A stretch of DNA of 64,000 bases from Myxococcales bacterium (GCA_013215565.1 JABSQV010000130.1:8880-72879), one strand, 5' to 3'; shown: positions 3,501-49,049, counted from the stretch's first letter. Notes: generated by a model not told the origin, from the letters alone. Program-made: numbers and translations.

Positions 3501-4759
3501 TTGTTGAGCAGGAACGTGGTGATGTCGCCGAGGGTGTCCTTGACGACCTTGGAGATGGCCCCCGACTCCGACTTGAGGGCGGCGCTGGTCTCGTTCAGGA
3601 CCAGTGGGATCGCAGCGATCATCTCGCGCAGTGGACCCTTGAACGTGTCGAAGGTCTCGATCAGGAGATCCTGCAGCGCCGAGATCATCACCTTGGCCTG
3701 GAACTGGACGGTCTCCCCAGTCGTGTTCCACATGTCCTCGGTCGTGCCCGCCGAGTCCTTCATGCTCTCGGTGAAGCCGACCAGATCGATCTGCCCGGTG
3801 CGGATCGCCCCGGTGAGCTTGGCGATGTTCGCGCCCGACCGCGCACCGAAGATGGTGATCGCATCGCTGGCGGTCAGACCCACGTCCGCCATCTTGCCCA
3901 TGATCTCGTTGAAGCTGTTGGTCTCCGGGTTGATGTCCTTGAGTTGGAGTCCGTACTTCTTGAGGGCGGCGGCCTGCTGGTCAGTGCCCTTGGCGGCCTG
4001 GATCATCGACATACGGAAGTTGGTGCCTGCGAGCGAGCCCTCCAGGCCCAGGTCGCGGAACGCGGCGACGGCGGCCGTGGTCTCCTCGATGCTCATGCCG
4101 AAGGACGCGCCGGCGGTGCCTGCGAACTTCATCGCCTCTCGGATCGACTCGAAATCCAACAGGGAGGATCGCATCGACTTGGAGAACACATCGACGATGC
4201 GGGTGCTCTGGGTCGCGTCCAGCCCGAACTGCTTCATGGTCGCGGCGACCAGGTTCGCCGAGTCGCCAAGCTGGGCGCCGTTGACCCCAGCGAACCGCAG
4301 GGCATCTCCTGCGGCCGTCATCGACTGCTCAGCGGACAGACCGGCACGGGCGAGCGCCTCAAGCCCTTCGCCGGCCTGGGTGGCGGTGAATTCAGTCGAG
4401 GCACCCAACTCCCGCGCCTTGTCGATCAGCGGCTGCAGATCCTCGCCCGTCTTGTTGGTGATGGCGCTGACCACAGCCATCTGGTGCTCGAACCCAGACC
4501 CGACCGCGATGCTCGCCACGCCGAATGCGGTCATCGCTGCCCCGGCGACCTTGAAGGCCGTGGAGACTCCGGACTGGACCCGGCTGGCGACATTGATCAT
4601 GCCGTCGCCGCTGATTTTCATCGTGCGGCCGGCGCGCGCCATCCCCTTCTGGAAGTCGTCGTCCTTGAAAAACAGGGTGACGAGGAGCTTCCCGACGTTG
4701 GTCGACGATGGCACTTTGAGTCCTCCTCTCCCGCCGAGTGTATCAGCCTCGGTCAGCAC
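572..4759 (-). CDS. tail tape measure protein (1395 aa)
   Basis: Very long ORF; N-terminal alpha-helical region with many IPxL/ALxE heptad-like repeats, central hydrophobic segments, long coiled-coil (EAEQLAQAEEKRL...); located after tail chaperones as in siphoviruses. Confidence 0.9.
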   Translation of the reverse strand: MLTEADTLGGRGGLKVPSSTNVGKLLVTLFFKDDDFQKGMARAGRTMKISGDGMINVASRVQSGVSTAFKVAGAAMTAFGVASIAVGSGFEHQMAVVSAITNKTGEDLQPLIDKARELGASTEFTATQAGEGLEALARAGLSAEQSMTAAGDALRFAGVNGAQLGDSANLVAATMKQFGLDATQSTRIVDVFSKSMRSSLLDFESIREAMKFAGTAGASFGMSIEETTAAVAAFRDLGLEGSLAGTNFRMSMIQAAKGTDQQAAALKKYGLQLKDINPETNSFNEIMGKMADVGLTASDAITIFGARSGANIAKLTGAIRTGQIDLVGFTESMKDSAGTTEDMWNTTGETVQFQAKVMISALQDLLIETFDTFKGPLREMIAAIPLVLNETSAALKSESGAISKVVKDTLGDITTFLLNNSTEIANSFVTMVKLTVDFTAAMSPLIKAFIFLSGHVEKVLLAMGVLFVTTGAIAMSGAVTSLGAAFGVAGTAVTAFGVTLTVSTGGLFAIAAAIAAVVAAIAIYIGKVKAARDETELLRAAQERLTAEAEQLAQAEEKRLAPALEKQQAAARKALETDESLTDAQRRRLEAVLALSVETARLQINQGKLIESGGELLTVEDLIRKGGKDGITVIRAQADALNENVKILDKQIAAAQEVATAMEDKNQHTQDTIARQVIANKLGRDDIQNMQDAQAAIDQLTAKRTEESRRAVALRNEISSASQRLLQENKQVQLEAHQAENRSIEDVAKTAIEARQKAAEATQALMQSLRDDALKIADDEIELALRAREKKIEEVNKAFDEEVRLATELGEETQKIEENRREALQQVNANFIAEAEKEEEEHQAELRQIRIDAEKEAGDILADLRAQEVSVVEALEIDKFNTLAELTEASAETRAAIEAEFDKQIAQHKRQTLIAAFGDIGMAAVNAFGMASGAAVGLVSSLTGMDISLRGILATTKEITAALIESGQVGRGVGETGNTNAMVDQMVDAAIAFVEQVAESAPIIIERLGERIPDLIASIAASLPALVEGLVAELPRVLKAILDAIPGLVTALLGSIVTIIDVIPLLVRQLLKALPSIITAILEGIPQIIRAIVRAIPQILDALIDSLPAIIHAVIAGIPGIVMALVRAVPQIVVSVIEAIPQLIAAILGEIPFLITTIIGMIPNIIIALANALPELLPAIVMLIPEVVVEIVKALPEIVFALVEGIVVELIGKMPRIVFALVEGILESVLQIGKEIGKAIVAIIPGIGGKDKKNKKGGKGFDSDDSGFIKDIGEAIGSLFKKGSSSGIQYVPATMRTVLHPGEAVLNADENRARMAGGRAGPAQAGAALGAGAAAAGGGSGQRIEVMVVAEGRLLDAVQVESMQRGRATGVKRIIRRASGAKVGFTRGRFNAWTP

Positions 4760-5845: not shown

Positions 5846-6457
5846 TCAAAGCAGCCGCTCGACCTTGATCAGCTGAGCGTTGGTCGCGAGGGACACGCCC
5901 GCCCAGTCGGTGTCGGCCCGGAGCGCCTTGAAGTTGTATTCGAACTGGTGCTCGTCGTGGGTGAACGGCAGCGAGGTGTTGCCCTCACCAACGGCGCGCC
6001 AGACATAGACGTTCATGGTGTTCGAGGACTGGCACATCTGATGTTGGACGTGGAGCGCCACCTCGGTGACACAGGGCTCGCCGCCGAAAGTGAAGGTCTC
6101 GTCAGAGCCCGTCACGGTCGTGTTGCCCGCGCCCAAGGCGAAGGTCAGTGAGTCGAAGTTCCACTCGATGCTGGTCACCTTGACCATGACCGACTGGGAC
6201 TGGATGAAGGTCAGCTCGATCAGCTTGGGGTTGCCCTGCATGATGTCGCGTTGCTCGGAGGCGAACTCGACGGTGATGCCGTCTTCGGTGATCGCGCCGA
6301 CATCAACGGAGGGAGTGGAGCCAACGGCTCCGAGGAACAACCTCGCGGGACCAAAGCTGATGTCCTCGCGGGTGACGGTGGGGAGGTTCAGGGGCACGGG
6401 CACCCTCCTTGCGGAGTTTAGGGTCGAGGTGCGGTGCGCTTCGCCGAGCGTCGTCAC
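5846..6457 (-). CDS. major tail protein
   Basis: 203-aa beta-rich protein immediately upstream of chaperones/TMP; typical size and position. Confidence 0.55.
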   Translation of the reverse strand: MTTLGEAHRTSTLNSARRVPVPLNLPTVTREDISFGPARLFLGAVGSTPSVDVGAITEDGITVEFASEQRDIMQGNPKLIELTFIQSQSVMVKVTSIEWNFDSLTFALGAGNTTVTGSDETFTFGGEPCVTEVALHVQHQMCQSSNTMNVYVWRAVGEGNTSLPFTHDEHQFEYNFKALRADTDWAGVSLATNAQLIKVERLL

Positions 6458-7192: not shown

Positions 7193-7621
7193 CTACGTGC
7201 CTGTGGCTGTGGTCGCGATCCACCGACCGCGCATGAACCAGGCGTCGAGGTTGTCGACGTGGCCCTCGACGGGTCGCTGGATCTCGCGCGAGACCCCGCA
7301 CATCGCGACCCCGGCCACAGCCAGCCGCGACTCATGCAAGACCTCGAAGGCGGTGTCGTAGATCTCGGCCGCCTGATCCAGCGACCGCTTGCTGTACCCG
7401 TACAGCTCGAACGTCTGCCCAGCGACGTACCCACCGCTCCTCGCGTTGCCCGACAAGAACTCAAACACCAGGATCGGACCCTCGCCGAGCTGCTCGATCG
7501 CCTTGGCGTCCTCGAGGCGAGAGCCGAACACCCGGCCGCCAACGAGCGTCTGGATCTCGTCGCTGCCCAGCAAGGTCTTCCGGATCAGGAGTCGAACGGT
7601 TCTGGTCTCTGCTCGTCCCAT
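7193..7621 (-). CDS. tail terminator / tail completion-like protein
   Basis: 142-aa protein in the head-tail joining block upstream of major tail; composition similar to DUF3168-type tail proteins (inference). Confidence 0.4.
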   Translation of the reverse strand: MGRAETRTVRLLIRKTLLGSDEIQTLVGGRVFGSRLEDAKAIEQLGEGPILVFEFLSGNARSGGYVAGQTFELYGYSKRSLDQAAEIYDTAFEVLHESRLAVAGVAMCGVSREIQRPVEGHVDNLDAWFMRGRWIATTATGT

Positions 7622-8169
7622 CAGATATTCAGCCCCGATCCCGGTCCGCGGGGAGTGAAGCGCAGGGCGGCCTTGGACCGAAGTCGGCTACCCAGCTCCT
7701 TGACGATGACTCGCATGGTCGCCTTCTGGGTGGCGGGCGCGGCCGCCGTGTTCCACAGAATGTCGCGACCCAGCATCACCCTGGTCCCCTTCACCACGTA
7801 GACAGCGTGAGGTGCGATCCCGGCATCGAGCTTGATCGCGAAATTGGGAGGCGACCGCGAGAAGTTGGTCCTGAGGGCGTTGAGCAATGTGCCCTTCTGG
7901 GTGTGGACCCGCATCTCGGGATTCAGGAGGGTCTTGTTGCTCGCCGCCGCGTGAATGCCGATGCTGCCGTGCCGCCGCGCGTAGGGGTGGCCCAGTCGGG
8001 CGAGCTGCTCGGGGCTGTGGTCCCGCAGGCTCATGTTCTTGCGGATCCTGCTCTCCAGCAGCCGACCCGCAACCTGCACCGCTGCCTCAGCCGCCTTCTG
8101 TTCGAGCGACCCGATCTTCTGTAGCTGCTGGATGGAGACATTCAGAGCGCCGGCATCGAAGTGCATCAT
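7621..8169 (-). CDS. head-tail joining protein (HK97 gp10-like position)
   Basis: Start MMHFDAG overlaps stop of upstream glycosyltransferase (aATGAtg); position in head-tail connector block. Confidence 0.4.
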   Translation of the reverse strand: MMHFDAGALNVSIQQLQKIGSLEQKAAEAAVQVAGRLLESRIRKNMSLRDHSPEQLARLGHPYARRHGSIGIHAAASNKTLLNPEMRVHTQKGTLLNALRTNFSRSPPNFAIKLDAGIAPHAVYVVKGTRVMLGRDILWNTAAAPATQKATMRVIVKELGSRLRSKAALRFTPRGPGSGLNI

Positions 8170-10868
8170 TCTGGCTGATCGTACCCCGGCTCGGTCTTCG
8201 GCGCTGGCGGGGTCCACTCGGGGAGCGCCATCGGCTCCCGATCCTCGCGTCGAGCGATCACGGGATGGGGAGGGGCGTACTTGCCCATGAACCGCTGCAC
8301 CTCAGAGCCTAGGCGATGGAACTGATGGGCGGGCTCCAGGCGCGCCATGCACTGATCGATCAGCTCGCGTGCCTCGCGAAGGTGGTGGAACGCTTTCTCC
8401 TTGAAAGGCAGGTACGAGGTGCCCGCGCAGGCGATGGCGCGATCGAGGCATTCGAGTCCCAGCTCAGTGTGCCCATCGTTCATGTAGTGCCACGCCAGGG
8501 AGACCCAGGCGCCGGGATTGTGGGGTCGCTCAGCGAGCTCCAATCTGAGGAGCCCCTCGTAGTGGTCCAGCTTCTCGCCCATGCGATCCTCGCCGAACGA
8601 CATCCCCCGGTGCTGCAGGACGAACGGGGCGTAAGCCCAACGGGGGTGCTGGTTGCGCGCGACCATCGCCGACCGGGCATTGTTGAAGCCCTCATGCACC
8701 CGACCGTCCATCCGCATCTCGGGCACCAGCTTGGTCATGCGCACCGAGTCGCTGATCGTGGGGGTCTCGTTCTCGGCGCGGTAGTTCGCGGTCTGCACCA
8801 GCCACCCTGACCGATCGCTCTCGGCCATCCGTCGAAGGGCGCGGGCGTCGGCCAGGTGCTCGTGGAGCCACTCATCGGGATCGAAAAAGAGAGCCCAGCC
8901 CAGGCCCTTGTGGTCCTCGGTGCCCTTCGCGGCGAGCAGGGAGTCGATCCCCGCGTTCCTCGCCTCGGCGATGTGATTGTCAAGCGGTTGGTGAACCCAC
9001 CGGCACCCGTGCTTCCAGGCCACCGCAGCAAGAGCATGGGACGGCCCGGTCGGGAACCAACCATCCTCACCGTCCTCGTACCCGCCAGGGTCGATGGACC
9101 TGTCGAGGCTCCCAGGCTTCATCGTCCAGAGTTTGTCATGCTCAGCCCACTCATCGGTCCAGACCAGCGCCGATGTGTCAATGACCCCGTGGAGCACATC
9201 GAGCCAACGGGCGATGTCTTCGGGCAACTCCTTGCCGTAGGTCAGCATGTGCAGCCCGATCCCGTTGCGCGGGTGCCACGCCTGCATCCTCATCGAGTCC
9301 TGCGACTCGGCGCCCAGACCTCGCCGGTCCCGATCCTGCGGTCGCATCAGCCCGTACCGCCGCAGACGGATCGAGGCGATCCGCGTGCTCTCGGGAGCGA
9401 AGTAGGGAGCCCAGGACGGCTGGTCCTTGAGCCACCCGCGACCGTCGAGTCGCCACAGTCGGGTCGCGTGAGTCGGTCCGCCCGTCCAGGTGTTGTCGTC
9501 GCCGAAGGGTGCATCGACCCTGCAGAGCCGACCCGTGTCCCAGTGGTGGACGAACGAGAGATCCCACGCCCTGACTCTCGGGTCGGGGTGAGAGCACAAC
9601 CTCAGAAGGTGGTCTCGGTTGACGCGGTCTTCGACCAGCTCATCCTTCTCCAGAGCCAGCGCCCAGGTGCCGCCGACCGACTGGGCCATCTCCATCAGCT
9701 TGCCGCGCTCGGCCGACACGTCCCGGTCCTTGTCCCAGACCTGCACTTTGACCGTGTTGTTGCCCTTGTGCCCGACCTTCGAACGAACCCACTTGCCGAA
9801 CTGCCTCGCGATGGCCTTGGCCGTGCCGCCGTCGCAGACCTTGAGCAGCGCCACCATGTCCTCGTCGAGGAGTTCCTGCTCGCGGGCCTGGGCGAACTCG
9901 GGGTCGCCCTGCATATCCAGCGGGTTGTTCAGCAGCAGGATCGCGAACCGGGGACACAGCTTCGATGCCCGTCGGAGGGACATCCGCAGGAGTTGCAGAT
10001 CGTGCCAGGTCTTGATCCCGCAGCGGTACACCGCGCAGATGGTCGGATCGTCGTCGGTGTCGTGCTTGTCGTAGAAGTCGATCCGCTCTCGGATCGATCC
10101 CGGCTTGCGATGACCCTGAGCCACGGGAGCCATGCTGCTGATGAAGCACCCCTCGACCACGGCCGTCCTGAAGCCAGCCCGATCGGCACGCAGGCACAGA
10201 TCAGACATCGCCCAGTCGCCCAACTTGGTGTCGAGGACGTGTCCGTCGTCGGCGACCAACTTCGCGACCAGCTCTGCCTTCATCATCACAGCCAGGCCGT
10301 CGACCTCATCGGCCGCACCGACCACGTCCTTGAAGTGCGAGGCGCGCGCCGCCGCGTACTCCTCGAGACCCATCGCCGCTTCCTCCTCGGTGAGAGGCAC
10401 GCGCTGGGATGGGTTGGCGCTCTGGTCGGTCACGGGTCCGACGATGCCGATGGCGCCGTAGCCCAGCGCGGGCATCTGCTTGTCGGTGCCGAGCAGGATG
10501 CTGGTCGGGAACATGCCCTGCTCCAGACCCTGCAACCACCCGATCGGCAGAACCGCGTCGGCGGAGATCATGACGACCCTTGGGGGCAGCTTCGCGCCTC
10601 GGACCACGTAGTCGAGCGCCTCCAGCTCGGTGCCCTCGAAATCGAGTCCCATGATCGCGCTGCCCTGCGGAGCCGTGACCCTGGCCGCGACCATCTCGAC
10701 GTGATCGCCGTACTCCCCGATCCCCACGGCAACGATGTGCGCGGTCTTGTCGCCGAGGGTCTGCATAACCGACAGGAGCTGGTTGGCGGCCTTCTCGGGG
10801 TCGTCGGTCGCGAACACGATCAGGTAGTCATACTCAGGGGCCGGTGGCCCGCTCTCGGTCTTGGTCAT
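8166..10868 (-). CDS. large multidomain glycosyltransferase (~900 aa) with C-terminal TPR-like region
   Basis: Probable start MTKTESGPP; N-terminal Rossmann-like segment YDYLIVFATDD, DxD-type acidic motifs, long helical C-terminus; embedded within virion structural operon. Confidence 0.6.
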   Translation of the reverse strand: MTKTESGPPAPEYDYLIVFATDDPEKAANQLLSVMQTLGDKTAHIVAVGIGEYGDHVEMVAARVTAPQGSAIMGLDFEGTELEALDYVVRGAKLPPRVVMISADAVLPIGWLQGLEQGMFPTSILLGTDKQMPALGYGAIGIVGPVTDQSANPSQRVPLTEEEAAMGLEEYAAARASHFKDVVGAADEVDGLAVMMKAELVAKLVADDGHVLDTKLGDWAMSDLCLRADRAGFRTAVVEGCFISSMAPVAQGHRKPGSIRERIDFYDKHDTDDDPTICAVYRCGIKTWHDLQLLRMSLRRASKLCPRFAILLLNNPLDMQGDPEFAQAREQELLDEDMVALLKVCDGGTAKAIARQFGKWVRSKVGHKGNNTVKVQVWDKDRDVSAERGKLMEMAQSVGGTWALALEKDELVEDRVNRDHLLRLCSHPDPRVRAWDLSFVHHWDTGRLCRVDAPFGDDNTWTGGPTHATRLWRLDGRGWLKDQPSWAPYFAPESTRIASIRLRRYGLMRPQDRDRRGLGAESQDSMRMQAWHPRNGIGLHMLTYGKELPEDIARWLDVLHGVIDTSALVWTDEWAEHDKLWTMKPGSLDRSIDPGGYEDGEDGWFPTGPSHALAAVAWKHGCRWVHQPLDNHIAEARNAGIDSLLAAKGTEDHKGLGWALFFDPDEWLHEHLADARALRRMAESDRSGWLVQTANYRAENETPTISDSVRMTKLVPEMRMDGRVHEGFNNARSAMVARNQHPRWAYAPFVLQHRGMSFGEDRMGEKLDHYEGLLRLELAERPHNPGAWVSLAWHYMNDGHTELGLECLDRAIACAGTSYLPFKEKAFHHLREARELIDQCMARLEPAHQFHRLGSEVQRFMGKYAPPHPVIARREDREPMALPEWTPPAPKTEPGYDQPE

Positions 10869-10960
10869 GTTTCGCCTCGCTGGCGTCAGGTTGCTACCCG
10901 TGTACCACGCTAGGGGTAGTCGGCTCAAGATCACGGGCTACGATGGCGATGGAGGTGCCT

Positions 10961-11605
10961 ATGTCCATCACGGGAATGTCTGACCGCCTGATCACGGTGA
11001 AGAGGCGATCGTCCGATGTGCTCACCCCGGTGGTCGCTGCCGCCTCGCACTCGGCAGATGTCCAGCCGCCCGTCGATAGCCACATCGAGGTCGCGATCAG
11101 CGGGGGCACCTCGAACACGGGGACCGTCACCGTGCTCGGGCTGGTCGGCGGGGTGCCTGACAGCGAGGTGCTGACCTTCAACGGGATCGCGCTCACCCAG
11201 GCCACGACCAAGCGGTTCGATGCGGGCGGGCTCGACACCCCCGCCTTCACCACGACGGATCTGACCGACGAGGCCACGGTCCCGACCATCACGGCCAGGT
11301 CGGTCGGCAGCGACGGATCGCGAGAGCACTCGGCGGCGACAGTCATCACCGATTGGCCAGCTCGGTTCGATCGGGGTCGGGCGAGCTGGCCCAACTCACC
11401 CGCTGGACGAGGGGCGGTTGAGAAAACCCGGTTCTACGTCGACTACACGACCGTGTGGGATCCCAGGCGCGGCGACGTGATCCTCGACCAGAGCAACGGC
11501 GACCAATTCAAGGTGCATGGCCAGCCAGACCTGCACGGTGCGAGCTTGACCCCCCACCACTGGGAGATCGAGGTTCGAGAGAACAAGGGCGCCGACGCGA
11601 ACTAG
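10961..11605 (+). CDS. hypothetical protein, divergent from glycosyltransferase
   Basis: ATG at 10961 with GGAGG SD 5 nt upstream; 214-aa Thr/Gly-rich beta-type protein; only plus-strand gene inside structural operon. Confidence 0.5.
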   Translation: MSITGMSDRLITVKRRSSDVLTPVVAAASHSADVQPPVDSHIEVAISGGTSNTGTVTVLGLVGGVPDSEVLTFNGIALTQATTKRFDAGGLDTPAFTTTDLTDEATVPTITARSVGSDGSREHSAATVITDWPARFDRGRASWPNSPAGRGAVEKTRFYVDYTTVWDPRRGDVILDQSNGDQFKVHGQPDLHGASLTPHHWEIEVRENKGADAN

Positions 11606-11693
11606 AACGGTACTTGCTGGCGAGCCGCGCATCGATGCGCGCGTTGACCAGGGTGGACTTGTACTGCTCGCGGAGGTTGTCGGTGTCGGTCAT
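11508..11693 (-). CDS. small hypothetical protein preceded by start-associated repeat
   Basis: ATG at 11693 abutting conserved repeat; N-terminal half protein-like (MTDTDNLREQYKSTLVNARIDARLASKY), C-terminal half low-complexity and overlapping convergent gene, so true extent uncertain. Confidence 0.3.
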   Translation of the reverse strand: MTDTDNLREQYKSTLVNARIDARLASKYRSSSRRRPCSLEPRSPSGGGSSSHRAGLAGHAP

Positions 11694-11757
11694 GATCTGC
11701 TCTCTGTTGGTAGGTCCATCCTACTTGGCAGATCACAGATTGGATACCGGCGAACCT
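11694..11757 (-). repeat. start-associated repeat, type A
   Basis: CTCTCTGTTGGTAGGTCCATCCTAC core then 18 bp then GGATACCGGCGAACC. Confidence 0.8.
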
Positions 11758-12358
11758 AGCTTTCCTTCGGGGCGTCCACGGGCTTCGGCTTCGGGGCGGG
11801 CTTCGGCTTCGGGCGCTTGGTCTTGGGCTTCGCTGGTGCCGGCTCGGCGGCGGCTGGCGCGGTCTTCGGCTTCGCGGCGGCCTGCGCCTGCGGTTGGGGA
11901 GCGAGGGCGACTGGGCGGCGCGGCACGCGCTCGGCTCGGCGCGGCTGGAAGGGGGCCATCAACTCCTTCGGCGTTTCGATGATCGCGCCGGGGTGAACGT
12001 CGAGGGCGGTCGCCCCCGATCCCTGGACGAGATGGTACACGGTGAAGGTGCCGTCGAACTTGGCGAGCGCCTTGGTCAGCTTTCCCTTGGGGGTGGGTTG
12101 CGAAGTCGTGATCACCAGTACCGCCTGGTCGACGACTCGGGAGACCTGACGGGCGAGGAATGCTTCATCCCCGCCATAGACGACCGTGACCCCAGTCCCG
12201 AGCAGCCGCTCACAGTCCTTGGACGAGGACAGGTCGACCACGCGCGCTCGGCCCCACCTCTTCTTGCCGTCGGCGTCGACGGCGAAGATCACGCCGCATC
12301 GGAGCAGCTCATCGCGTCGGGGGTGGGTCAGCGAGTCGATGAAGCCAAGACGTGGCAT
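11756..12358 (-). CDS. hypothetical protein with C-terminal Pro/Ala/Lys-rich histone-like tail
   Basis: ATG at 12358 with GGAGG SD; 200 aa; C-terminus PQAQAAAKPKTAPAAAEPAPAKPKTKRPKPKPAPKPKP resembles actinobacterial HupB/H1-like tails. Confidence 0.5.
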   Translation of the reverse strand: MPRLGFIDSLTHPRRDELLRCGVIFAVDADGKKRWGRARVVDLSSSKDCERLLGTGVTVVYGGDEAFLARQVSRVVDQAVLVITTSQPTPKGKLTKALAKFDGTFTVYHLVQGSGATALDVHPGAIIETPKELMAPFQPRRAERVPRRPVALAPQPQAQAAAKPKTAPAAAEPAPAKPKTKRPKPKPAPKPKPVDAPKES

Positions 12359-12388: not shown

Positions 12389-12739
12389 TCAGCCGCAGCT
12401 CCCGCCGAACCCGCAAATGGTGCATTGCTTGCAGGCGCCCATCTGTGCCATCTGGCCGCCGCACCCGAGATCTGGGCAGATGTCGACGATATCCGAGAGC
12501 TGCAACATCCCCAGCGCCGACACGCCCAGATCGAGCTTCGGCAGCTCGATCACCTCGGGCTCTACTGCGTGAGGCACGCGACCCAGATCACCATCGAGCC
12601 AGCTGTCCAGCTCGCGGGGCCAATTCTCGGCCTCGCCGTCTGGGGCCGTCCAGTCGTGGTCCCCGTCCTCATGCGGATCGCGGTGACATCGGCGCCCACC
12701 ATAGGTGCTGTCACATTGCGGGCGTGGGTGGGCGGTCAT
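12389..12739 (-). CDS. Cys-rich hypothetical protein
   Basis: 116-aa ORF, C-terminal CPDLGCGGQMAQMGACKQCTICGFGGSCG. Confidence 0.4.
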   Translation of the reverse strand: MTAHPRPQCDSTYGGRRCHRDPHEDGDHDWTAPDGEAENWPRELDSWLDGDLGRVPHAVEPEVIELPKLDLGVSALGMLQLSDIVDICPDLGCGGQMAQMGACKQCTICGFGGSCG

Positions 12740-13143: not shown

Positions 13144-13785
13144 CTATGAGCCTGGGGCGAAGGGTCGAATGAGGCCACCGAGGATCAGGCTGACATCGGG
13201 CGGCAGATATCCGCGTCCCGATCCACCAGCCCCAACGCCGGCGCCGGCAACACCGGCCGCCAACTTGTAGCTGTACTGCCCGATCTTCTCCGAGTCGAGC
13301 CCCAGCTTGGACCCGCCAGTGTTGAAGCGGTAGGCAGCGAGAATGGTCGCGGCACCACAGAGGGCAACGAGGTTCTCATCCCCAGCGGCCCACCCCGCCG
13401 TGTGGGTGACCTCGATGTGCTGTCGGCCGCAGGGCAGGGAGAACGGAGCCCCGGCGCTGGTCTTGAAGCAGAGGAGCCCCATCGGGCGGGGGCGGCCCAG
13501 GTAGTAGGTGTCGGCATCTTGGACCGTGCCGTCGAACTTCACCTCGGTCACCCCGGTGGCGAGGACCACGGGGTACTGAACGAGCCAGAAGCCCTCGGTT
13601 CCGAAGTCGAGGACATCGTAGGTCTCGGTGTACGAGGTCGGGTCGGTGTCGGTGAGTTGGAACAGACCGAAGAAGTAGGCGTTGACCCCAGCGACGATCG
13701 TGGTCAGGCGAGCGTCATGGGTCGTGTCCGCAGCGGGGATCCGCAGCTCCTCTTTGACCTTCGCCAGTGTGGTGAATCCTGCCAC
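13144..13785 (-). CDS. head-tail connector protein (gp6-like)
   Basis: N-terminus MAGFTTLAKVKEELRIPAADTTHDARLTTIVAGVNAYF is the characteristic head-tail connector/gp6 signature (LxxVKxxLRI..D..D..L). Confidence 0.6.
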   Translation of the reverse strand: MAGFTTLAKVKEELRIPAADTTHDARLTTIVAGVNAYFFGLFQLTDTDPTSYTETYDVLDFGTEGFWLVQYPVVLATGVTEVKFDGTVQDADTYYLGRPRPMGLLCFKTSAGAPFSLPCGRQHIEVTHTAGWAAGDENLVALCGAATILAAYRFNTGGSKLGLDSEKIGQYSYKLAAGVAGAGVGAGGSGRGYLPPDVSLILGGLIRPFAPGS

Positions 13786-14208: not shown

Positions 14209-14292
14209 TGGTTGCGGTGGCGGGACTCGAACCCGCGGCCTCCAGAATATGAACCTGGCGAGCTACCAACTGCTCCACACGCGCCATCGCAG
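14209..14292 (-). tRNA. tRNA-like element, anticodon loop TTCATAT (CAT, Met-like); 5' acceptor strand does not pair
   Basis: RC reads ...TGGAGCAGTTGGTAGCTCGCCAGGTTCATATTCTGGAGGCCGCGGGTTCGAGTCCCGCCACCGCAACCA: good D arm, anticodon arm, T arm GCGGG-TTCGAGT-CCCGC and CCA, but no complement of 3' acceptor CACCGCA at the 5' side. Confidence 0.45.
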
Positions 14293-14569: not shown

Positions 14570-15547
14570 CTAGGCAGCGATCCCGACGAGGATGGCGGCA
14601 CCCAGGGTGTTGGCGAGGGTGAGCGCGCCGTCCCAGAAGATGTCGAACTCGTCGAACTGGCTCGAGGACTTCGCCAGCGGCATCACGGTGAGCGGGGTCA
14701 ACTCGGCGATGTAGCAGTAGCGGGTGTTGACCACGATGATCGCGGTCGTCACGGATCCGCTGTAGGCGGTGACCTTGGTCCCGTTGAAGGTCAGCACATC
14801 GGGCATGCCCGTCGTGGTGATTAGGGGGATCCCATCGTAGGTCCGGACGCGGAAGCCGGCCGCGATCTCGACCATGTCGTTGAACTGCTGCTGAGCCTGG
14901 AGCTGCGCGTTCAGGAGTCGCCGACCCTTGCGGCTGGCGAGGATGACGAGATCGGATCGGTTGCCCGAGCCCTTCACCGCGTCGATGGTCTCGTCCAGCT
15001 TGTCGAGGGTGAGCGCGTCACCGGTCACCGTCGTGGTCTGCAGGATGATCTGCGAGGCGGTGGCCTGGGTGAGCGTGATCAGCCCATCGAACTGGTCGGC
15101 GTCGATCGCGATGTCGCCCGTGACCAGGCCGTCCTCGAAGGTCTCGGAGAAGTCGCCGGTCCGCCCGACGATCTCACCGGCGAGCACGTCGCCGTAGGAG
15201 CGCCCGGTGGCCTGCAGCTTGCGAGTGACCTTGCCGCGAACGATCAGGGTCTTGCACGGGAGCGAGACCTGCACATACGTGCCGGTGCCCTCGGTGGGCT
15301 CCGTGGTGTCGTCGATCCACTCGGCCGAGGAGCCGGGGGTGCGCCGGTTGATGTACTCGGCGTTGCCCGACATCGGCTTGCGGGGCAAGACGGCGGCCGT
15401 TCCCAGTTCCCGATGATGGATCTGCTGGACGGTGCGGTTGATGTTCGTCTGGAGCAGGACGGTGCCAGCACCAGCGACGTTGAGGGCTCGTTCGAAGCGT
15501 TGACGGCGCGCCGGATCGAAACCTGCGAAAGCGGGGGAATTGCTCAT
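14570..15547 (-). CDS. major capsid protein
   Basis: 325-aa protein directly downstream of protease/scaffold ORF and upstream of connector; composition typical of HK97-fold capsid proteins. Confidence 0.65.
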   Translation of the reverse strand: MSNSPAFAGFDPARRQRFERALNVAGAGTVLLQTNINRTVQQIHHRELGTAAVLPRKPMSGNAEYINRRTPGSSAEWIDDTTEPTEGTGTYVQVSLPCKTLIVRGKVTRKLQATGRSYGDVLAGEIVGRTGDFSETFEDGLVTGDIAIDADQFDGLITLTQATASQIILQTTTVTGDALTLDKLDETIDAVKGSGNRSDLVILASRKGRRLLNAQLQAQQQFNDMVEIAAGFRVRTYDGIPLITTTGMPDVLTFNGTKVTAYSGSVTTAIIVVNTRYCYIAELTPLTVMPLAKSSSQFDEFDIFWDGALTLANTLGAAILVGIAA

Positions 15548-15574: not shown

Positions 15575-17668
15575 CTACTGCCAGGTGGCGCGCTCGTTGG
15601 GGTCGGTGATGATGCCGTCGTGCTCGGCGGCGACGAGGAGGGCGTGGAGTCCCTGCTCAAGGCGGACACGCTGCTCCCCGGCGAGGCCGGTGCGCGTGGT
15701 CAGCTCGGGAACGAGCTGCTGGGCGACGGCGGCCAGTGCCGGCGCGTCGGTGCGGGCGCGACCGATGAGGGTGTCATAGGCACCCTGGGCAGCGGGACCG
15801 TCGGGGATGGCCAGCGCGGAGCGGCCGACCCGGTTGGGGCGAGCGCACATCGCGGCGAGGGCATCCTCGGACGCCTTGGCGCGGGCGACGGCGGCGGCGG
15901 CCTGGTTGCGCGCTTCGGCGACCTGGGTGGGCGCGGCGCGGTCGGCCGGCGCGGGATCGGCAGTGCCGCTCGCCTTGAGCGCCGCGATATCGGTCAGCAT
16001 GGGAGCCAACGCCGCGTCGAGCAGGCTGCGGAAAGCCGCGAGGGTTTCTTCATTGACGGGCATCGCATGCTCCTCGGACGAATCGCCTTGATTGGCGATA
16101 GGTGAACTTGGGTCCGGTGGCGCGCTTCTCCGAGCGTCGACACCGATGGTAGCCGACTCGGCGCTCTCGCGCGAGTCGGCAGGTACAGATGTTGCCTCGG
16201 GCGCCGGGGTCACGGTGTGCTTCAGCGCATCCTGAACCGCAGGTCCGAGAGAACCGGTCGCCGCCGCTAGAACGGCCTCGGCTACTGCTTCCTCGGGAGC
16301 GTCGGCATCCCAGGAAACGATCACTCGACCGTCACGAACCTCGGAGCGGGCACAGGCCGCCTCGATCTGTTCGTAGGTGTTGTAGATCTCGCCCTCGGAC
16401 TCGGGCTCGGCGCGCGCGGCGGGGACATCGTCCCCATCCTTGTCGGCCTTGGCTCCGATCGGGGCGTCGTAGTCACCCTCCTCGGCCTCCTTGGAGAGCG
16501 ACTCATCGGCACCGGGATCGTCGCCGACCAGCTCGCCGGGCTCAAGGTCGTCCACGGTGCGGCCGCCCTTCAGGTATTGGTAGATCACCGTGTTCGGCGT
16601 GACCTCGGCCGCGACCACATGCCGCTCACCGAACTGCATCGCCACGCCGCTGTCATCGGTGACCACTGCGAGGAAGCCCTCATCGGCTTCGCCCTCGGCA
16701 ACGCGCTCGGTGAGGATGTCCCTGACCCGTTCGGCAACCGCTGGGGTGGTGAAGACTCGGGTGCCGTTGCCCAGGTGCTCGATCATCCGCTTGGCGCGGA
16801 CCTCGTAGGCGCTCCGCTCGATGGCGGTCCGCAGCTGAGTGATCGCGTTGGCGTCAGGGTTGGCCGGCGCTCGGGTGACGGCCAGGTGGTCGAGGTCGAC
16901 ACCCTGAACGATGACCCGCTCGACATCCCCGTCCTCGTTCTGGAGGATCTGCAGCTGGGTGAACCAGCCGCCGATGCTCTGCCCGATGATCTCTCCGCGC
17001 TTGACCCGCTTGAGGAGTGAGGCGGCAGCGATCTCGCTCGCATCGCGGTCGGCGACGACTTCTGGGATCGGGATGATCTCCATCGTGGCGCGCAGGAGGA
17101 AGTGGGTCTCGCTCTCGTTGTGTGGAGCTCGGACCTGATCCCCATCGACGGGGATGACCTCAGCGTGGACCGTCCGACCGATGATCTCGTCCCACTCGAT
17201 GGGTCCGCTCATGCCTCGATTGTGTCGCGGCAGGTACGGGATCCCGCCACCGACGATCATCTGACCCGCCATCATCTTGAGGGCGCGGAGGGACATCTCG
17301 GTCCCGTAGAAGTCGACCGAGGTGCTGCTGGCGATGCCTGCAACGAGCTGGCGACCGAACGCCTCTTCATCAGCGGTCCCCGGCTCCCCGGTCGCTGTCG
17401 GGTCGAGCAGGATCCCCTCGCCGTCGTCATCGATCACCCGCTCGGGGGGATCCACGAACGAGGTGCGGGCACTGGCCTCGACATCGAGCTGGACGGCGTT
17501 CGCCGAGAGTTGGATCGTCCCACCCTCAACAGATCGGGCGCTGGACTGCATCGGGACCGTGAACGGCACCCGGCAGCGGATCGTCCAATACGCCTGACCC
17601 TCGGCCGTGCGACCCGTCGGGGTGTTCCAGTCAAGACCAGCGAGGAAGGCGAGATGTGGCGCGCTCAT
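15575..17668 (-). CDS. prohead protease fused to scaffolding-like C-terminal region (697 aa)
   Basis: N-terminal block FYGTEMSLRALKMMAGQ...HNRGMSGPIEWDEIIGRTVH resembles HK97-type prohead protease; long acidic/Ala-rich helical C-terminus; position between portal and capsid. Confidence 0.55.
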   Translation of the reverse strand: MSAPHLAFLAGLDWNTPTGRTAEGQAYWTIRCRVPFTVPMQSSARSVEGGTIQLSANAVQLDVEASARTSFVDPPERVIDDDGEGILLDPTATGEPGTADEEAFGRQLVAGIASSTSVDFYGTEMSLRALKMMAGQMIVGGGIPYLPRHNRGMSGPIEWDEIIGRTVHAEVIPVDGDQVRAPHNESETHFLLRATMEIIPIPEVVADRDASEIAAASLLKRVKRGEIIGQSIGGWFTQLQILQNEDGDVERVIVQGVDLDHLAVTRAPANPDANAITQLRTAIERSAYEVRAKRMIEHLGNGTRVFTTPAVAERVRDILTERVAEGEADEGFLAVVTDDSGVAMQFGERHVVAAEVTPNTVIYQYLKGGRTVDDLEPGELVGDDPGADESLSKEAEEGDYDAPIGAKADKDGDDVPAARAEPESEGEIYNTYEQIEAACARSEVRDGRVIVSWDADAPEEAVAEAVLAAATGSLGPAVQDALKHTVTPAPEATSVPADSRESAESATIGVDARRSAPPDPSSPIANQGDSSEEHAMPVNEETLAAFRSLLDAALAPMLTDIAALKASGTADPAPADRAAPTQVAEARNQAAAAVARAKASEDALAAMCARPNRVGRSALAIPDGPAAQGAYDTLIGRARTDAPALAAVAQQLVPELTTRTGLAGEQRVRLEQGLHALLVAAEHDGIITDPNERATWQ

Positions 17669-29138: not shown

Positions 29139-29735
29139 GTGTCGAAGGCAGCGAAGGCAGAGCCAGTCGAGGAAGACCAGGCCGCGAAGTGGGTCAAACG
29201 AGAGTTGCTTGAACCCTGGGTCGGCAACCCCCGCGACAATGAGAAGGCGGTCGACCCGGTGGCGTTGTCGATCGAGCGGTTCGGGTTCGGAGCTCCGATC
29301 GTCGCGTGGAAGCCCGAGACCCCCATGGTTATCGCTGGGCACACTCGGCTCAAGGCCGCGACCAAGCTGGGCCTCGCCGAGGTACCTGTCCGCTGGATGT
29401 CGCACCTGACCGAAGCAGAGGCGAAGGCACTCGCCCTGGCCGACAATCGACTCGGTGAGTTGGCCGACTGGAACTTCGAAGGGCTGCAGGGAGAGATCCA
29501 GGCCCTCGCTGAGCAGGATGTCGACCTGTCGGGTCTGGGTTGGGCCGGCAACGAGTTGGAGGTGCTCAAAGGCAACCTCGAACAGTTCCTCCCGAAGCAG
29601 AAGCCGAAGCCGCCGAAGTCGTTGGAGTCTGAGCACTACATCGAGATCCGCTGCACCAACGAGCGACTGAATGAGATCCAGGATCAACTGCTCGCCTGGG
29701 ACGGTGAGGAAGACATCGAGGTACAGATCGCATGA
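29139..29735 (+). CDS. ParB-like nuclease domain protein
   Basis: GTG at 29139 with AGGAGG SD; NPR...GHTRLKAA ParB/Srx motifs. Confidence 0.6.
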   Translation: MSKAAKAEPVEEDQAAKWVKRELLEPWVGNPRDNEKAVDPVALSIERFGFGAPIVAWKPETPMVIAGHTRLKAATKLGLAEVPVRWMSHLTEAEAKALALADNRLGELADWNFEGLQGEIQALAEQDVDLSGLGWAGNELEVLKGNLEQFLPKQKPKPPKSLESEHYIEIRCTNERLNEIQDQLLAWDGEEDIEVQIA

Positions 29736-30580
29736 CCACCCCAGGCACCGAGCGCAACGTCAAGCAGGCCGAGAGGTTCGTCCAAGAGCACGATGGTCGA
29801 GTGACCTTCCAAGGCAAGTGCGAGGGCGAGGCGTGGCAGAAGCAGCTCCGAGATCGCTACCTGCATGAGGGCGCGCCGCCCGTCGACTTGAAGCTCAAGC
29901 GAGCCCGCGTGATCCCCGTCACCCGTCGACTCGCCGAACACATCATCTTCAAGTACGAGTGGCTCGGCACGATGGTGTCGACGGGTCGCCACTACGGGAT
30001 CTTCTTTGGTCCCTACTGCGCTGGGGTGACCTGCTCAGGCGTTGGATGCACTGGGGGCACCAACACGGCGAAGATGTTCGGCATGGAGACTCAGGAGATG
30101 TTGACCTTCGCCAGAGGGGCATGCGTCCACTGGGCACCAACGGGGGCCAACTCCAAGTTGGTGTCGTGGTCCTGCCGTCACCTCGCCGAGCACGGTCGGC
30201 TGACCGTCGCCTACGCAGATACCGACGCTGGGGAGATCGGGACAATCTACCAGGCGTGCGGTTGGACCTACATCGGCAAGGGCAGCTCGACGCGGCAGTG
30301 GGTCAGTCCCGAGGGCAAGATCCTCGATCAGAAGACCCCCGGCAACCTCGTTGAGCAGCGGGGGTTCCCGTCGAACAGCGGCGGCTGGCTCAAAGGTCAG
30401 CGCGCCCAGTGGGTTCAGGCGATGAGGGACGCGGGCTGGGTCGAGCAGATCACGAACCCGAAACACCGGTACGTTAAGGTGCTCCGGAAGCGGGACAAGG
30501 AACTGCATGCCCGGATCGCGGACATGGCGCAGCCCTACCCGAAGCGAGTGGGCACCTCGGCGGCCGCCGCCTCTCAGTAG
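29732..30580 (+). CDS. hypothetical protein (282 aa)
   Basis: Overlapping start with ParB gene; Cys/Gly-rich central region. Confidence 0.45.
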   Translation: MTTPGTERNVKQAERFVQEHDGRVTFQGKCEGEAWQKQLRDRYLHEGAPPVDLKLKRARVIPVTRRLAEHIIFKYEWLGTMVSTGRHYGIFFGPYCAGVTCSGVGCTGGTNTAKMFGMETQEMLTFARGACVHWAPTGANSKLVSWSCRHLAEHGRLTVAYADTDAGEIGTIYQACGWTYIGKGSSTRQWVSPEGKILDQKTPGNLVEQRGFPSNSGGWLKGQRAQWVQAMRDAGWVEQITNPKHRYVKVLRKRDKELHARIADMAQPYPKRVGTSAAAASQ

Positions 30581-48958: not shown

Positions 48959-49020
48959 CGGACTCTCTCTGTTGGTAGGTCCATGGTACACAATGACTGG
49001 GTACACCACAACCCCGACGC
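48959..49020 (-). repeat. start-associated repeat variant (GGTAGGTCCATGGTAC ... GGGTACACC)
   Basis: core abutting ATG of VWA gene. Confidence 0.7.
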
Positions 49021-49049
49021 AACGGATGATCGGCGTCGGGGCTCGACTT

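What the first reader, a model, noticed from the sequence alone, without database searches (positions are those of the whole stretch)
8166..11605. 900-aa glycosyltransferase inside the virion structural operon with a divergent partner gene
A very large GT-like protein with a C-terminal TPR-like region sits between connector and tail-joining genes. It is translationally coupled to the next structural gene. A 214-aa Thr/Gly-rich gene (10961..11605) is transcribed divergently from it. This is consistent with phage-directed glycosylation of virion proteins, known in a few actinophages. The divergent gene could be a substrate or accessory enzyme.
Basis: partly seen in the sequence, partly recalled or inferred. 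Interest (0 to 1): 0.6.

Follow-up and report, generated by a model that had tools for sequence, protein, structure and literature searches.

The report
Triple glycosyltransferase in phage neck module
Among the head-to-tail joining genes of an uncultured phage sits a 900-residue enzyme with three sugar-transferase domains and a TPR arm. Its one fully intact domain resembles bacterial enzymes that attach sugars to proteins, so it probably glycosylates the virus particle; the 'divergent partner' is a neck protein whose gene has been flipped.

Summary
Window 8166..10868 (-) encodes a soluble 900-aa protein whose stop overlaps the next neck gene's start (ATGA). Window 10961..11605 (+) is a real, divergently transcribed 214-aa gene.

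An AlphaFold model (pLDDT 91) shows three GT-A domains followed by a TPR-like helical region. The best structural matches are the peptide glycosyltransferases SunS and ThuS. A profile of domain 3 matches the Listeria flagellin O-GlcNAc transferase GmaR (E=5e-16), and all 11 invariant residues of the family lie in or just after domain 3.

In this clade, domains 1 and 2 have lost canonical motifs and evolve faster. These phages also lack the sugar-nucleotide epimerase gene that most relatives carry in the same module.

The gene is present in every related viral contig that reaches its position (33 distinct sequences, GC 44-70%). It has no match in 50,697 isolated-phage records or in GTDB species genomes.

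The 214-aa gene is not an enzyme. It looks like a stopper-type neck protein, is co-directional with the glycosyltransferase in 45 of 49 loci, and is inverted only in this sub-lineage.

Virion glycosylation is the best reading but is inferred, not shown. The link to actinophages is unsupported.

The parts
8166..10868 (-). 900-aa soluble protein with three GT-A domains and a TPR-like region (stop codon included)
   Evidence: ORF and GC3. Homologues. AF2 model with pLDDT 91.4 and pTM 0.91. Foldseek hits to SunS, ThuS, K4CP, LARGE1 and SpsA. No TM-like segment: maximum Kyte-Doolittle 19-residue mean is 1.26.
10053..10826 (-). Domain 1 (residues 15-272): classic GT2-type GT-A domain, degenerate in this clade
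   Evidence: The family profile matches Dol-P-Man synthase 5mlz and the glucosyltransferase 9jma. Most relatives carry NDD and [YF]EDNDLCVRA; the window has SAD and WAMSDL. Within-clade identity is 0.31, against 0.57 for domain 3.
9273..10040 (-). Domain 2 (residues 277-532): paralogue of domain 3, partly degenerate
   Evidence: hhalign of D2 against D3 gives probability 95.8%, E=7e-9. D409-E410 is kept, but the GLHCGN motif of most relatives is deleted in the window clade.
8598..9263 (-). Domain 3 (residues 536-757): GmaR/SunS-like GT2 catalytic domain, intact
   Evidence: Ten of the 11 family-invariant residues lie here (T571 R637 N638 D663 D665 E666 N695 R710 H725 E726); the eleventh, Y770, is in the first helix of the TPR-like region just downstream. 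The domain profile matches GmaR 22ao at E=5e-16, SunS at 1e-7 and ThuS at 7e-6, sharing the aRN, DxDE, R and VHE motifs.
8277..8591 (-). TPR-like helical region (residues 760-864)
   Evidence: Profile hits to consensus TPR proteins and to the TPRs of SPINDLY and OGT. The model has five helices in this stretch.
8166..8169 (-). ATGA stop/start overlap with the next gene
   Evidence: Read directly from the sequence. Gene calls on L003 and L017 agree.
7621..8169 (-). 182-aa neck1/tail-completion-like gene immediately downstream
   Evidence: Weak phrog_5 hit, E=0.022. It follows the glycosyltransferase gene in the related loci that extend past it.
10961..11605 (+). 214-aa stopper/head-closure-like neck protein with an extra beta-sandwich; inverted relative to the operon
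   Evidence: Orthologues in L001, L002, L008-L011 and L016 lie on the glycosyltransferase's strand. Across 49 loci, 45 are same-strand and 4 opposite. phrog_793 head-tail adaptor E=0.0047. AF2 pLDDT 88. Foldseek probability 0.94-1.0 to T1 stopper, lambda neck, Milano neck and XkdH, but E only 0.02-0.2.
10869..10960 (.). 92-bp divergent intergenic region holding both ribosome-binding sites and a conserved 12-mer (10897-10908)
   Evidence: Sequence. GTGGTACACGGG also lies upstream of the glycosyltransferase gene in L004, the other sequenced locus with the inversion. It is not enriched in the window. No sigma-70 consensus was found.
11606..11755 (.). 150-bp convergent spacer with strong hairpins between the inverted gene and the 200-aa gene
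   Evidence: RNA fold -67.9 kcal/mol, z=-3.0, including the palindrome GCGCGCATCGATGCGCGC.
11756..12358 (-). 200-aa gene of unknown function with a Pro/Ala/Lys-rich C-terminal tail, last gene before the inverted one
   Evidence: ORF and GC3. Weak homologues at the same position in L001 and L006.

Best explanation
The 900-aa protein is a cytosolic, late-expressed, phage-encoded protein glycosyltransferase.

Shown:
- It consists of three GT-A (GT2-type) domains and a short TPR-like helical region.
- Domain 3 plus the TPR region has the same arrangement as, and is homologous to, the catalytic domains of GmaR (flagellin O-GlcNAc transferase) and SunS/ThuS (peptide S/O-glycosyltransferases).
- Domain 3 keeps every family-invariant residue that lies within a GT domain.
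- The gene is fixed between the stopper-like gene and the neck gene in every related phage contig that reaches that position.

Inferred:
- Domain 3 uses D663-x-D665-E666 and H725-E726 to bind a metal and a nucleotide-sugar, and transfers a sugar onto Ser, Thr or Cys of a protein that the TPR region helps recruit.
- Because the gene is co-expressed with head, neck and tail genes, the acceptor is most likely one or more virion proteins, modified in the cytoplasm before or during assembly.
- In most relatives, domains 1 and 2 are active and extend the glycan, using a sugar made by the co-encoded NAD-dependent epimerase/dehydratase.
- In the window's clade, domains 1 and 2 have lost key motifs and the epimerase gene is absent. 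This enzyme therefore probably adds a simpler glycan from a host nucleotide-sugar, with the two degenerate domains kept as scaffolds.

The 214-aa divergent gene is the lineage's stopper-type neck protein. Its gene was inverted in this sub-lineage, which splits the late operon. The glycosyltransferase and tail genes then presumably restart from the 92-bp divergent region.
For: Fold:
- The AF2 model has pLDDT 91.4 and shows three alpha/beta domains plus helices.
- Foldseek's top hits are SunS and ThuS (E about 2e-11), then the tandem GT-A enzymes K4CP, LARGE1, PmHS2, LH3 and ColGalT1, and SpsA.

Homology:
- The family profile matches SunS at 5e-7 and GmaR at 6e-7.
- The domain-3 profile matches GmaR at 5e-16 over the whole domain, with shared motifs.
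- GmaR is a GT domain followed by a TPR domain, and that TPR is proposed to recognise flagellin (PMC9638930).
- 30 of 53 family members hit PF00535, 26 hit PF13641 and 12 hit PF13704.

Catalytic conservation:
- The 11 invariant columns across 53 sequences that are 21-46% identical to the window protein lie in domain 3, apart from Y770 just after it.

Context:
- The order portal, protease, MCP, adaptor, stopper, glycosyltransferase, neck, tail completion, TTP, TMP is conserved.
- The glycosyltransferase gene was found in 50 fetched loci (33 distinct ORF sequences). No locus that reaches the position lacks it.
- 22 of 39 mid-size ORFs between the MCP and glycosyltransferase genes in relatives are NAD-dependent sugar epimerases/dehydratases, and one is a DegT aminotransferase.

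Degeneration of domains 1 and 2:
- Motif tables.
- Canonical motifs co-occur with an epimerase gene 21:1, and degenerate motifs with its absence 6:1.
- Per-domain identity in the degenerate clade is 0.31 / 0.35 for domains 1 / 2 against 0.57 / 0.58 for domain 3 / TPR. In the canonical clade the values are 0.40 / 0.47 / 0.46 / 0.37.

Other:
- The ATGA overlap with the next gene.
- No TM segment.
Against: - No acceptor was identified, and no virion protein here has an obvious Ser/Thr-rich tail.
- The window protein alone fails every Pfam GT gathering score (best 13.7 bits against a cut-off of 27.5) and has no NCBIfam hit.
- The catalytic roles of the motifs are assigned from general GT-A knowledge and from alignment to GmaR and SunS, not from a solved complex.
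- The epimerase/motif association is not corrected for phylogeny and may reflect only one or two loss events.
- There is no homology to the experimentally shown mycobacteriophage virion glycosyltransferases.
- The promoter scan found nothing in the divergent region, so the transcription model is inference.
Confidence: 0.55

Rival explanations
1. The enzyme glycosylates a host target rather than the virion. The target could be a host surface protein (flagellin or pilin, by analogy with GmaR) or an envelope glycan that serves as receptor. Progeny would then not be lost on debris, or infected cells would exclude other phages.
For: The closest characterised homologue of domain 3, GmaR, modifies flagellin. 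Tandem GT-A enzymes such as K4CP, PmHS2 and LARGE1 build polysaccharides. The sugar-nucleotide genes in relatives would serve this function equally well.
Against: The protein is soluble, with no membrane or secretion features. The gene is a fixed core member of the neck module, not a moron near lysogeny or lysis genes, in every related contig that reaches the position. It is translationally coupled to a neck gene. Relatives span GC 44-70%, so a single shared host target is unlikely.
Confidence: 0.15
2. The protein is mainly non-catalytic. It would be a TPR-bearing assembly factor or a virion (neck) component derived from glycosyltransferases, with the GT folds kept as scaffolds.
For: Two of the three GT domains have lost canonical motifs here. 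Pseudo-GT-A domains are known in LH3- and ColGalT1-type proteins, which are among the fold hits. The gene lies among neck genes and next to the stopper-like gene in almost all loci.
Against: Domain 3 keeps DxDE, HE, RN and other residues invariant across 53 divergent sequences, which is the pattern expected of an active site. In the window clade, domain 3 and the TPR region are the slowest-evolving parts. The frequent co-encoded nucleotide-sugar enzymes in relatives make sense only with catalysis.
Confidence: 0.1
3. It modifies phage DNA, by glycosylating modified bases, or makes a free glycan unrelated to proteins.
For: The phage encodes a Mom-family DNA-modification protein elsewhere (29708-30577), so DNA modification occurs in this genome. 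Phage DNA glucosyltransferases exist (own knowledge).
Against: There is no similarity to DNA glycosyltransferases in any search. The best hits are protein and peptide glycosyltransferases. A TPR region suggests a protein partner. The gene lies in the late structural operon rather than with replication genes.
Confidence: 0.04

Closest known systems
GmaR of Listeria monocytogenes (flagellin beta-O-GlcNAc transferase; GT2 domain followed by a TPR domain; PDB 22ao for the GT domain; PMC9638930)
   Same: Domain 3 aligns over the whole GmaR GT domain (E=5e-16) and shares the vD...DtG, aRN, DxDE, R, VHE and hyG motifs. A TPR-type helical region follows the catalytic domain directly in both.
   Different: The phage protein has two extra GT-A domains N-terminal to this unit. 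Its TPR part is short (about 5 helices) and it has no antirepressor domain. Instead of GmaR's compact DTGSTD loop there is a 30-60 residue insert (WT...TGPS). It is encoded in a phage neck module, and its acceptor is unknown.
SunS / ThuS glycocin S-glycosyltransferases (SunS is encoded by the SPbeta prophage; PDB 7msn, 7msp, 7msk)
   Same: These are the best structural matches to the model (Foldseek E about 2e-11). The sequence profile matches at 1e-7 and 7e-6 with the same motif set. They are GT-A domains plus a C-terminal helical domain acting on a peptide substrate.
   Different: Identity is only about 14-16%. SunS acts on a dedicated bacteriocin precursor encoded next to it; no such peptide gene is evident here. 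They have one GT domain, not three.
Virion glycosylation systems of mycobacteriophages Che8, Corndog and Myrna (Freeman et al. 2023, as summarised in PMC12363180 and PMC11256854)
   Same: These are phage-encoded glycosyltransferases that decorate capsid and tail-tube proteins. This is the same proposed biological role.
   Different: There is no detectable homology: tblastn of the 900-aa protein against 50,697 phage records found nothing. Those enzymes are separate, smaller proteins; in Che8-like phages they lie near the right genome end (PMC11256854), not in the neck module. The hosts are actinobacteria, whereas the host here is unknown. Glycosylation is shown there and only inferred here.
Tandem GT-A enzymes (K4CP chondroitin polymerase, LARGE1, PmHS2) and LH3 / ColGalT1 with a non-catalytic GT-A domain
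   Same: Several GT-A domains sit in one chain, each expected to add a different sugar. Catalytically silent GT-A domains are kept as structural modules (fold hits).
   Different: Those enzymes build or modify polysaccharides or collagen. There is no sequence-level relationship beyond the fold. None has three GT-A domains followed by a TPR region.

Membership tests
GT-A fold / GT2-type glycosyltransferases | Rossmann-like alpha/beta/alpha GT-A fold | tested here: met
   The AF2 model (pLDDT 91.4) has three such domains. Foldseek matches SunS, ThuS, K4CP, SpsA, GalNAc-Ts and others with probability 1.0.
GT-A fold / GT2-type glycosyltransferases | Acidic DxD-type motif for metal and nucleotide-sugar binding | tested here: met
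   Domain 3 has D663-P-D665-E666, invariant in 53 of 53 sequences. Domain 2 keeps D409-E410. Domain 1 keeps only one Asp (SAD, against NDD in most relatives).
GT-A fold / GT2-type glycosyltransferases | Reaches the curated Pfam score of a GT2 model | tested here: not met
   The window protein's best hit is PF13704 at 13.7 bits, against a cut-off of 27.5. Relatives do hit GT2 models at E<=0.01: PF00535 in 30 of 53, best E=1.7e-49.
GT-A fold / GT2-type glycosyltransferases | Sugar transfer activity | not testable with these tools
   Needs an enzyme assay.
GmaR/SunS-like protein or peptide glycosyltransferases (GT2 domain + TPR/helical domain) | Catalytic domain homologous over its full length, with the shared motif set | tested here: met
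   The domain-3 profile matches GmaR at E=5e-16 (profile 14-205 to chain 17-187), SunS at 1e-7 and ThuS at 7e-6.
GmaR/SunS-like protein or peptide glycosyltransferases (GT2 domain + TPR/helical domain) | Helical/TPR domain directly C-terminal to the catalytic domain | tested here: met
   TPR profile hits fall at residues about 770-830, and the model has helices 760-864.
GmaR/SunS-like protein or peptide glycosyltransferases (GT2 domain + TPR/helical domain) | Acceptor is a protein or peptide side chain (Ser, Thr or Cys) | not testable with these tools
   Needs mass spectrometry of candidate acceptors.
Known phage virion glycosylation systems (Che8 / Corndog / Myrna type) | Homology to their glycosyltransferases | tested here: not met
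   tblastn of the 900-aa protein against 50,697 phage records at E<=1e-5 found no match.
Known phage virion glycosylation systems (Che8 / Corndog / Myrna type) | Glycans covalently attached to capsid or tail proteins | not testable with these tools
   Needs virions.
Known phage virion glycosylation systems (Che8 / Corndog / Myrna type) | Actinobacterial host | tested here: inconclusive
   The identical 214-aa protein is deposited under a 'Myxococcales bacterium' MAG. The nearest isolated-phage MCPs are Acinetobacter phages at 30% identity. No relative was found in GTDB species genomes.
Stopper / head-closure neck proteins (SPP1 gp16 / lambda gpFII type), for the 214-aa gene | Small beta-barrel fold of neck stopper proteins | tested here: inconclusive
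   Foldseek probability is 0.94-1.0 over about 100 columns to T1 stopper 9l0e_A, Milano neck 8fwe_AM, lambda neck 8k37_M/8xow_f and XkdH 3f3b, but E is only 0.02-0.2. phrog_793 E=0.0047. No Pfam or PDB sequence hit.
Stopper / head-closure neck proteins (SPP1 gp16 / lambda gpFII type), for the 214-aa gene | Position between the head-tail adaptor and the tail-completion genes | tested here: met
   Conserved order in the window and in more than 40 related loci.
Invertible DNA switch (site-specific inversion), for the flipped gene | Inverted repeats flanking the segment, and a nearby invertase | tested here: not met
   Only short, imperfect, chance-level inverted repeats were found, and none brackets the gene. 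The same orientation is seen in five contigs across at least two samples, and in relatives at 53-56% identity. It is a fixed inversion.

The most novel reading that the evidence does not exclude
A widespread, entirely uncultured siphophage lineage (SU10-like capsid, genome GC 44-70%) carries a GmaR/SunS-type protein glycosyltransferase as a core neck-module gene. The enzyme is fused to two further GT-A domains and is usually accompanied by its own nucleotide-sugar epimerase/dehydratase.

If so, building a defined glycan on virion proteins is an ancient and common phage trait, well beyond the few mycobacteriophages where it has been shown. The window's clade would then be a natural 'reduced' version, in which the two extending domains became pseudo-enzymes and the sugar-supply gene was lost.
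Probability: 0.45. Interest if true: 0.75.

Novelty: new variant of a known kind. Interest (0 to 1): 0.6.

Why it matters
Virion glycosylation in phages has been demonstrated only in a handful of mycobacteriophages, where it blunts antibody recognition.

Here an unrelated, much larger enzyme is fixed in the neck module of a whole metagenomic phage lineage. Its homology points to protein acceptors, and in most members it sits beside sugar-nucleotide enzymes.

If the inference holds, three things follow:
- Glycan coats on phage particles are far more common than thought.
- There is a compact three-step glycosylation enzyme that could be used to engineer phage or protein surfaces.
- There is a natural series (three active domains, then one active domain plus two pseudo-domains) for studying how multi-domain glycosyltransferases decay.

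The flipped stopper gene is also a rare case of an essential neck gene transcribed against its operon.

Tried and rejected
Searches that found nothing:
- Megablast of the region against the phage collection: no match.
- Pfam, PHROGs and NCBIfam on the window protein alone: only a sub-threshold PF13704 hit.
- The word-indexed homologue search found just 4 full-length relatives, and with the family alignment returned mostly generic GT2+TPR proteins. The exhaustive representative search was needed to see the family.
- The first PDB profile search, with 4 sequences, hit only TPRs. Deeper and domain-restricted profiles were needed.
- Two scans of GTDB genomes found no relative, so there is no host or prophage clue.
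- The sigma-70 promoter and terminator scan found nothing useful around the divergent region.
- The conserved 12-mer is not a repeated motif in the window.
- ARAGORN found no tRNA, although Rfam later found one.
- The Freeman et al. 2023 paper is not in the held library, so it is cited only through papers that summarise it.

A6, built from eligible homologues, was used instead.

Ideas considered and rejected:
- The 214-aa ORF is a spurious antisense ORF. Rejected on the GC-frame pattern, the Shine-Dalgarno sequence and 46 homologues.
- The inversion is an assembly artefact or an active switch. Rejected because independent assemblies and diverged relatives share it, and no flanking inverted repeats exist.
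- The minus-strand ORFs 10894..11394 and 10931..11329 are real genes. Rejected: their codon-position GC pattern is atypical, and only a sub-threshold TetR_C hit was found.

Full report
**1. What is in the sequence**

The window is a high-GC (about 65%) tailed-phage genome. Its structural genes run on the minus strand from about 21 kb down to position 1. They are:
- portal, 17775-20417
- a protease/scaffold-like gene, 15575-17668
- an SU10-type major capsid protein (MCP), 14570-15547
- a head-tail adaptor, 13144-13785
- several small genes
- the region of the finding
- a neck1-like gene, 7621-8169
- a tail-completion gp17-like gene, 7193-7621
- the tail tube protein (TTP), 5846-6457
- the tape measure protein (TMP), 572-4759

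The big minus-strand ORF runs from 8166 to 10934. Its likely start is the ATG at 10868, which gives 900 aa and has GAGG upstream. Third-position GC is 0.85 throughout. Its stop overlaps the start of the next gene as ATGA.

The + strand ORF 10961..11605 (214 aa) has a GGAGG 7 nt upstream and the codon-position GC pattern of a real + strand gene. The identical arrangement occurs in independent metagenome assemblies, a 78-kb and a 7-kb scaffold from different samples.

**2. Fold and family of the 900-aa protein**

On its own the protein is nearly invisible to curated libraries. Its best Pfam hit is PF13704 at 13.7 bits, against a cut-off of 27.5. PHROGs and NCBIfam return nothing, and it has no match in 50,697 isolated-phage records.

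The word-indexed protein search found only four full-length relatives. An exhaustive profile search of 1.84 billion cluster representatives found 244 proteins at E<=1e-30, about a hundred of them aligned over most of their 770-1080 residues.

With a 53-sequence alignment, AlphaFold gave a confident model (pLDDT 91.4, pTM 0.91). It has three alpha/beta domains (residues 15-272, 277-532 and 536-757) and a helical region (760-864).

Foldseek against the PDB ranks the glycocin S-glycosyltransferases SunS and ThuS first (E about 2e-11). Next come the tandem GT-A enzymes K4CP, LARGE1, heparosan synthase 2, LH3 and ColGalT1, and single GT-A enzymes such as SpsA.

The helical region matches consensus TPR proteins and the TPRs of SPINDLY and OGT. 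Thirty of the 53 family members match PF00535 at E<=0.01, 26 match PF13641 and 12 match PF13704.

**3. The three domains are not equivalent**

Ten of the eleven columns that are invariant across the 53 sequences lie in domain 3: T571, R637, N638, D663, D665, E666, N695, R710, H725 and E726. The eleventh, Y770, lies in the first helix just after it.

A profile of domain 3 alone matches the catalytic domain of Listeria GmaR at E=5e-16 over its whole length, SunS at 1e-7 and ThuS at 7e-6. The matches share the aRN, DxDE, R and VHE motifs.

GmaR is the flagellin O-GlcNAc transferase. It is built as a GT domain followed by a TPR domain, and that TPR domain is proposed to recognise the protein substrate (PMC9638930). 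Domain 3 plus the TPR region is therefore a GmaR/SunS-type protein glycosyltransferase unit by homology.

Domain 2 is a paralogue of domain 3 (hhalign probability 95.8%, E=7e-9). Domain 1 is a classic GT2 domain; the profile matches Dol-P-Man synthase and a PglI-like enzyme.

Most family members carry canonical motifs in both accessory domains: NDD and [YF]EDNDLCVRA in domain 1, and DxDE and GLHCGN in domain 2. The window's clade instead has SAD and WAMSDL in domain 1, and has deleted GLHCGN in domain 2 while keeping D409-E410.

Within that clade, domains 1 and 2 are much less conserved than domain 3 and the TPR region: mean pairwise identity is 0.31 and 0.35 against 0.57 and 0.58. In the canonical clade all four parts are similar, at 0.40, 0.47, 0.46 and 0.37.

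I read this as two accessory domains under relaxed constraint, probably no longer catalytic but still folded. That reading rests on general GT-A knowledge of the DxD motif, the acidic catalytic base and the C-terminal His. It is inference.

**4. Genomic context across relatives**

Searching IMG/VR with the glycosyltransferase and with the capsid protein retrieved 94 related viral loci.

The module order is the same in all of them. The glycosyltransferase gene is present in every locus that extends far enough to show the neck or tail genes: 50 loci, 33 distinct glycosyltransferase ORF sequences. No locus demonstrably lacks it. In the six with 10 kb of downstream sequence and no hit, the adaptor or stopper gene itself lies 3-9 kb downstream of the capsid gene, so the glycosyltransferase position lies at or beyond the end of the fetched sequence. 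The sampled relatives span GC 44-70%.

In these relatives, 22 of 39 mid-size ORFs between the capsid and glycosyltransferase genes are NAD-dependent sugar-nucleotide epimerases/dehydratases, and one is a DegT-type sugar aminotransferase.

Canonical domain 1/2 motifs co-occur with such a gene in 21 loci against 1. Degenerate motifs go with its absence in 6 loci against 1. The window itself has no epimerase. This association is not corrected for shared ancestry, but it fits a system in which the extra domains and the sugar-supply enzyme work together and were lost together.

No relative was found in 185,579 GTDB species genomes with two different pattern sets. No isolated phage has the gene. The only taxonomic label is that the identical 214-aa protein is deposited under a 'Myxococcales bacterium' MAG. 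The actinophage framing is unsupported.

**5. The 'divergent partner'**

The 214-aa protein has clear orthologues (31-53% identity) immediately upstream of the glycosyltransferase gene in the relatives. In 45 of 49 loci it lies on the same strand as the glycosyltransferase gene. The four exceptions are three copies of the window's own sequence from other assemblies and L004, the closest IMG/VR relative.

The orthologue on the P0002 contig (P0193, 56% identity) is also on the opposite strand. There it heads a block of twelve opposite-strand genes.

The inversion is thus a fixed feature of one sub-lineage. No flanking inverted repeats suggest an active switch.

The protein gives a weak head-tail adaptor hit (phrog_793, E=0.0047). 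Its AlphaFold model (pLDDT 88) matches, over about 100 residues and with Foldseek probability 0.94-1.0, the T1 stopper, lambda and Milano neck proteins, XkdH and a T4 neck complex. E-values are only 0.02-0.2. The remaining ~100 residues form an extra beta-sandwich with only chance-level similarity to lectins, CBMs and Ig domains.

Together with its position, this makes it most likely the stopper/head-closure protein. It is a structural gene, not an enzyme. Whether it is a substrate cannot be told.

Because it is inverted, the late operon is interrupted. The 150-bp convergent spacer at 11606-11755 folds into strong hairpins (z=-3.0). The 92-bp divergent region contains a 12-mer, GTGGTACACGGG, that is also found upstream of the glycosyltransferase gene in L004. 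A restart promoter there is my inference; the sigma-70 scan found none.

**6. Most likely mechanism**

The protein is soluble and is made together with the head, neck and tail proteins.

Domain 3 probably binds a nucleotide-sugar and a metal through D663/D665/E666 and H725/E726, and transfers the sugar to a side chain of a protein held by the TPR region. Timing, translational coupling and the fixed position in the neck module point to virion proteins as acceptors.

In most relatives, domains 1 and 2 would extend the glycan with a sugar made by the co-encoded epimerase/dehydratase. In this phage they appear to be relics.

My estimates are about 0.95 for 'GT-A enzyme with TPR', about 0.75 for 'protein glycosyltransferase of the GmaR/SunS type', and about 0.55 for the full statement including virion targets. 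The rivals are a host-directed target (0.15), a mainly non-catalytic assembly or structural role (0.10), and DNA or free-glycan synthesis (0.04).

**7. Comparison with what is known, and novelty**

It works like GmaR and SunS, and passes the sequence and architecture tests for that group.

It is not a member of the mycobacteriophage virion-glycosylation glycosyltransferase families, since no homology was found. It may share their biological role (PMC12363180, PMC11256854).

Three GT-A domains plus a TPR region, fixed as a core neck-module gene of an uncultured phage lineage, was not found in the curated libraries or in the literature searches I ran. I rate it a new variant of a known kind, with interest 0.6.

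Noticed in passing
window 14213-14284 (-), and 39311-39369 (-): Rfam finds a tRNA (53.8 bits, anticodon CAU) in the 376-nt spacer between the capsid gene and the next head gene. ARAGORN missed it, probably because of a one-base irregularity in the acceptor stem. A second, weak tRNA hit (34.2 bits) lies at 39311-39369.
   Followed up: partly
window 29708-30577 (+): A Mom-family protein (PF25680, E=1e-22), suggesting that this phage modifies its DNA bases.
   Followed up: no
window 47432-51650 (-): Three consecutive genes: DUF6744 (50364-51650), a MoxR-type AAA ATPase (49053-50360, PF20030 E=6e-57) and a VWA-domain protein (47432-49069). A MoxR-VWA pair in a phage genome.
   Followed up: no
window 12389-12739 (-): A 116-aa ORF in the head-neck module with a Cys-rich C-terminus (CPDLGC...CKQCTIC...C) that resembles a zinc ribbon. 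It was found only in the window's own lineage, not in related loci.
   Followed up: partly
window 11508-11693 (-): A short minus-strand ORF that looks coding (high GC3) only for its first ~29 codons, up to where it runs into the end of the inverted gene. Its first 15 nt (MTDTD) match the glycosyltransferase gene's first 15 nt (MTKTE) at 13 of 15 positions. It could be a small gene, chance, or a scar of the inversion.
   Followed up: partly
window 10897-10908 (-); L004 2180-2191: The 12-mer GTGGTACACGGG lies about 28 nt upstream of the glycosyltransferase start codon in the window and about 26 nt upstream in L004, the other sequenced locus with the inverted stopper gene. L001 has GTGGTAC about 80 nt upstream. 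It may be part of a restart promoter or operator.
   Followed up: partly
window 11756-12358 (-); L001 7678-8484: The 200-aa protein just before the inverted gene ends in a Pro/Ala/Lys-rich low-complexity tail. The L001 protein at the same position (weak tblastn match, 23% identity) has a long Pro/Ala-rich tail. Function unknown; I considered it as a possible glycosylation target, but it is poor in Ser/Thr.
   Followed up: partly
L012, L013, L014 (glycosyltransferase homologues of 604-618 aa): In one sub-group of relatives the glycosyltransferase lacks domain 1 entirely and starts at the equivalent of residue ~255, while an epimerase gene is still present upstream.
   Followed up: partly
P0002 contig (86,089 bp, Logan SRR31656008; no DNA available): In this relative the inverted stopper orthologue heads a block of twelve small opposite-strand genes inserted between the head genes and the glycosyltransferase gene. 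The inverted position seems to have become a landing site for extra genes.
   Followed up: no
window 27216-28946 (-) versus portal 17775-20417 (-): The gpA-type large terminase lies about 7 kb from the portal gene, separated by a stretch of small genes on both strands. That is an unusual gap for a packaging module.
   Followed up: no
L016 4769-7129; L002 5170-6963; L011 7825-9864: Relatives carry further large ORFs in the head-neck module: a 787-aa protein starting with an epimerase domain, and 598-aa and 680-aa proteins without Pfam hits. These may be additional glycan-related enzymes.
   Followed up: no
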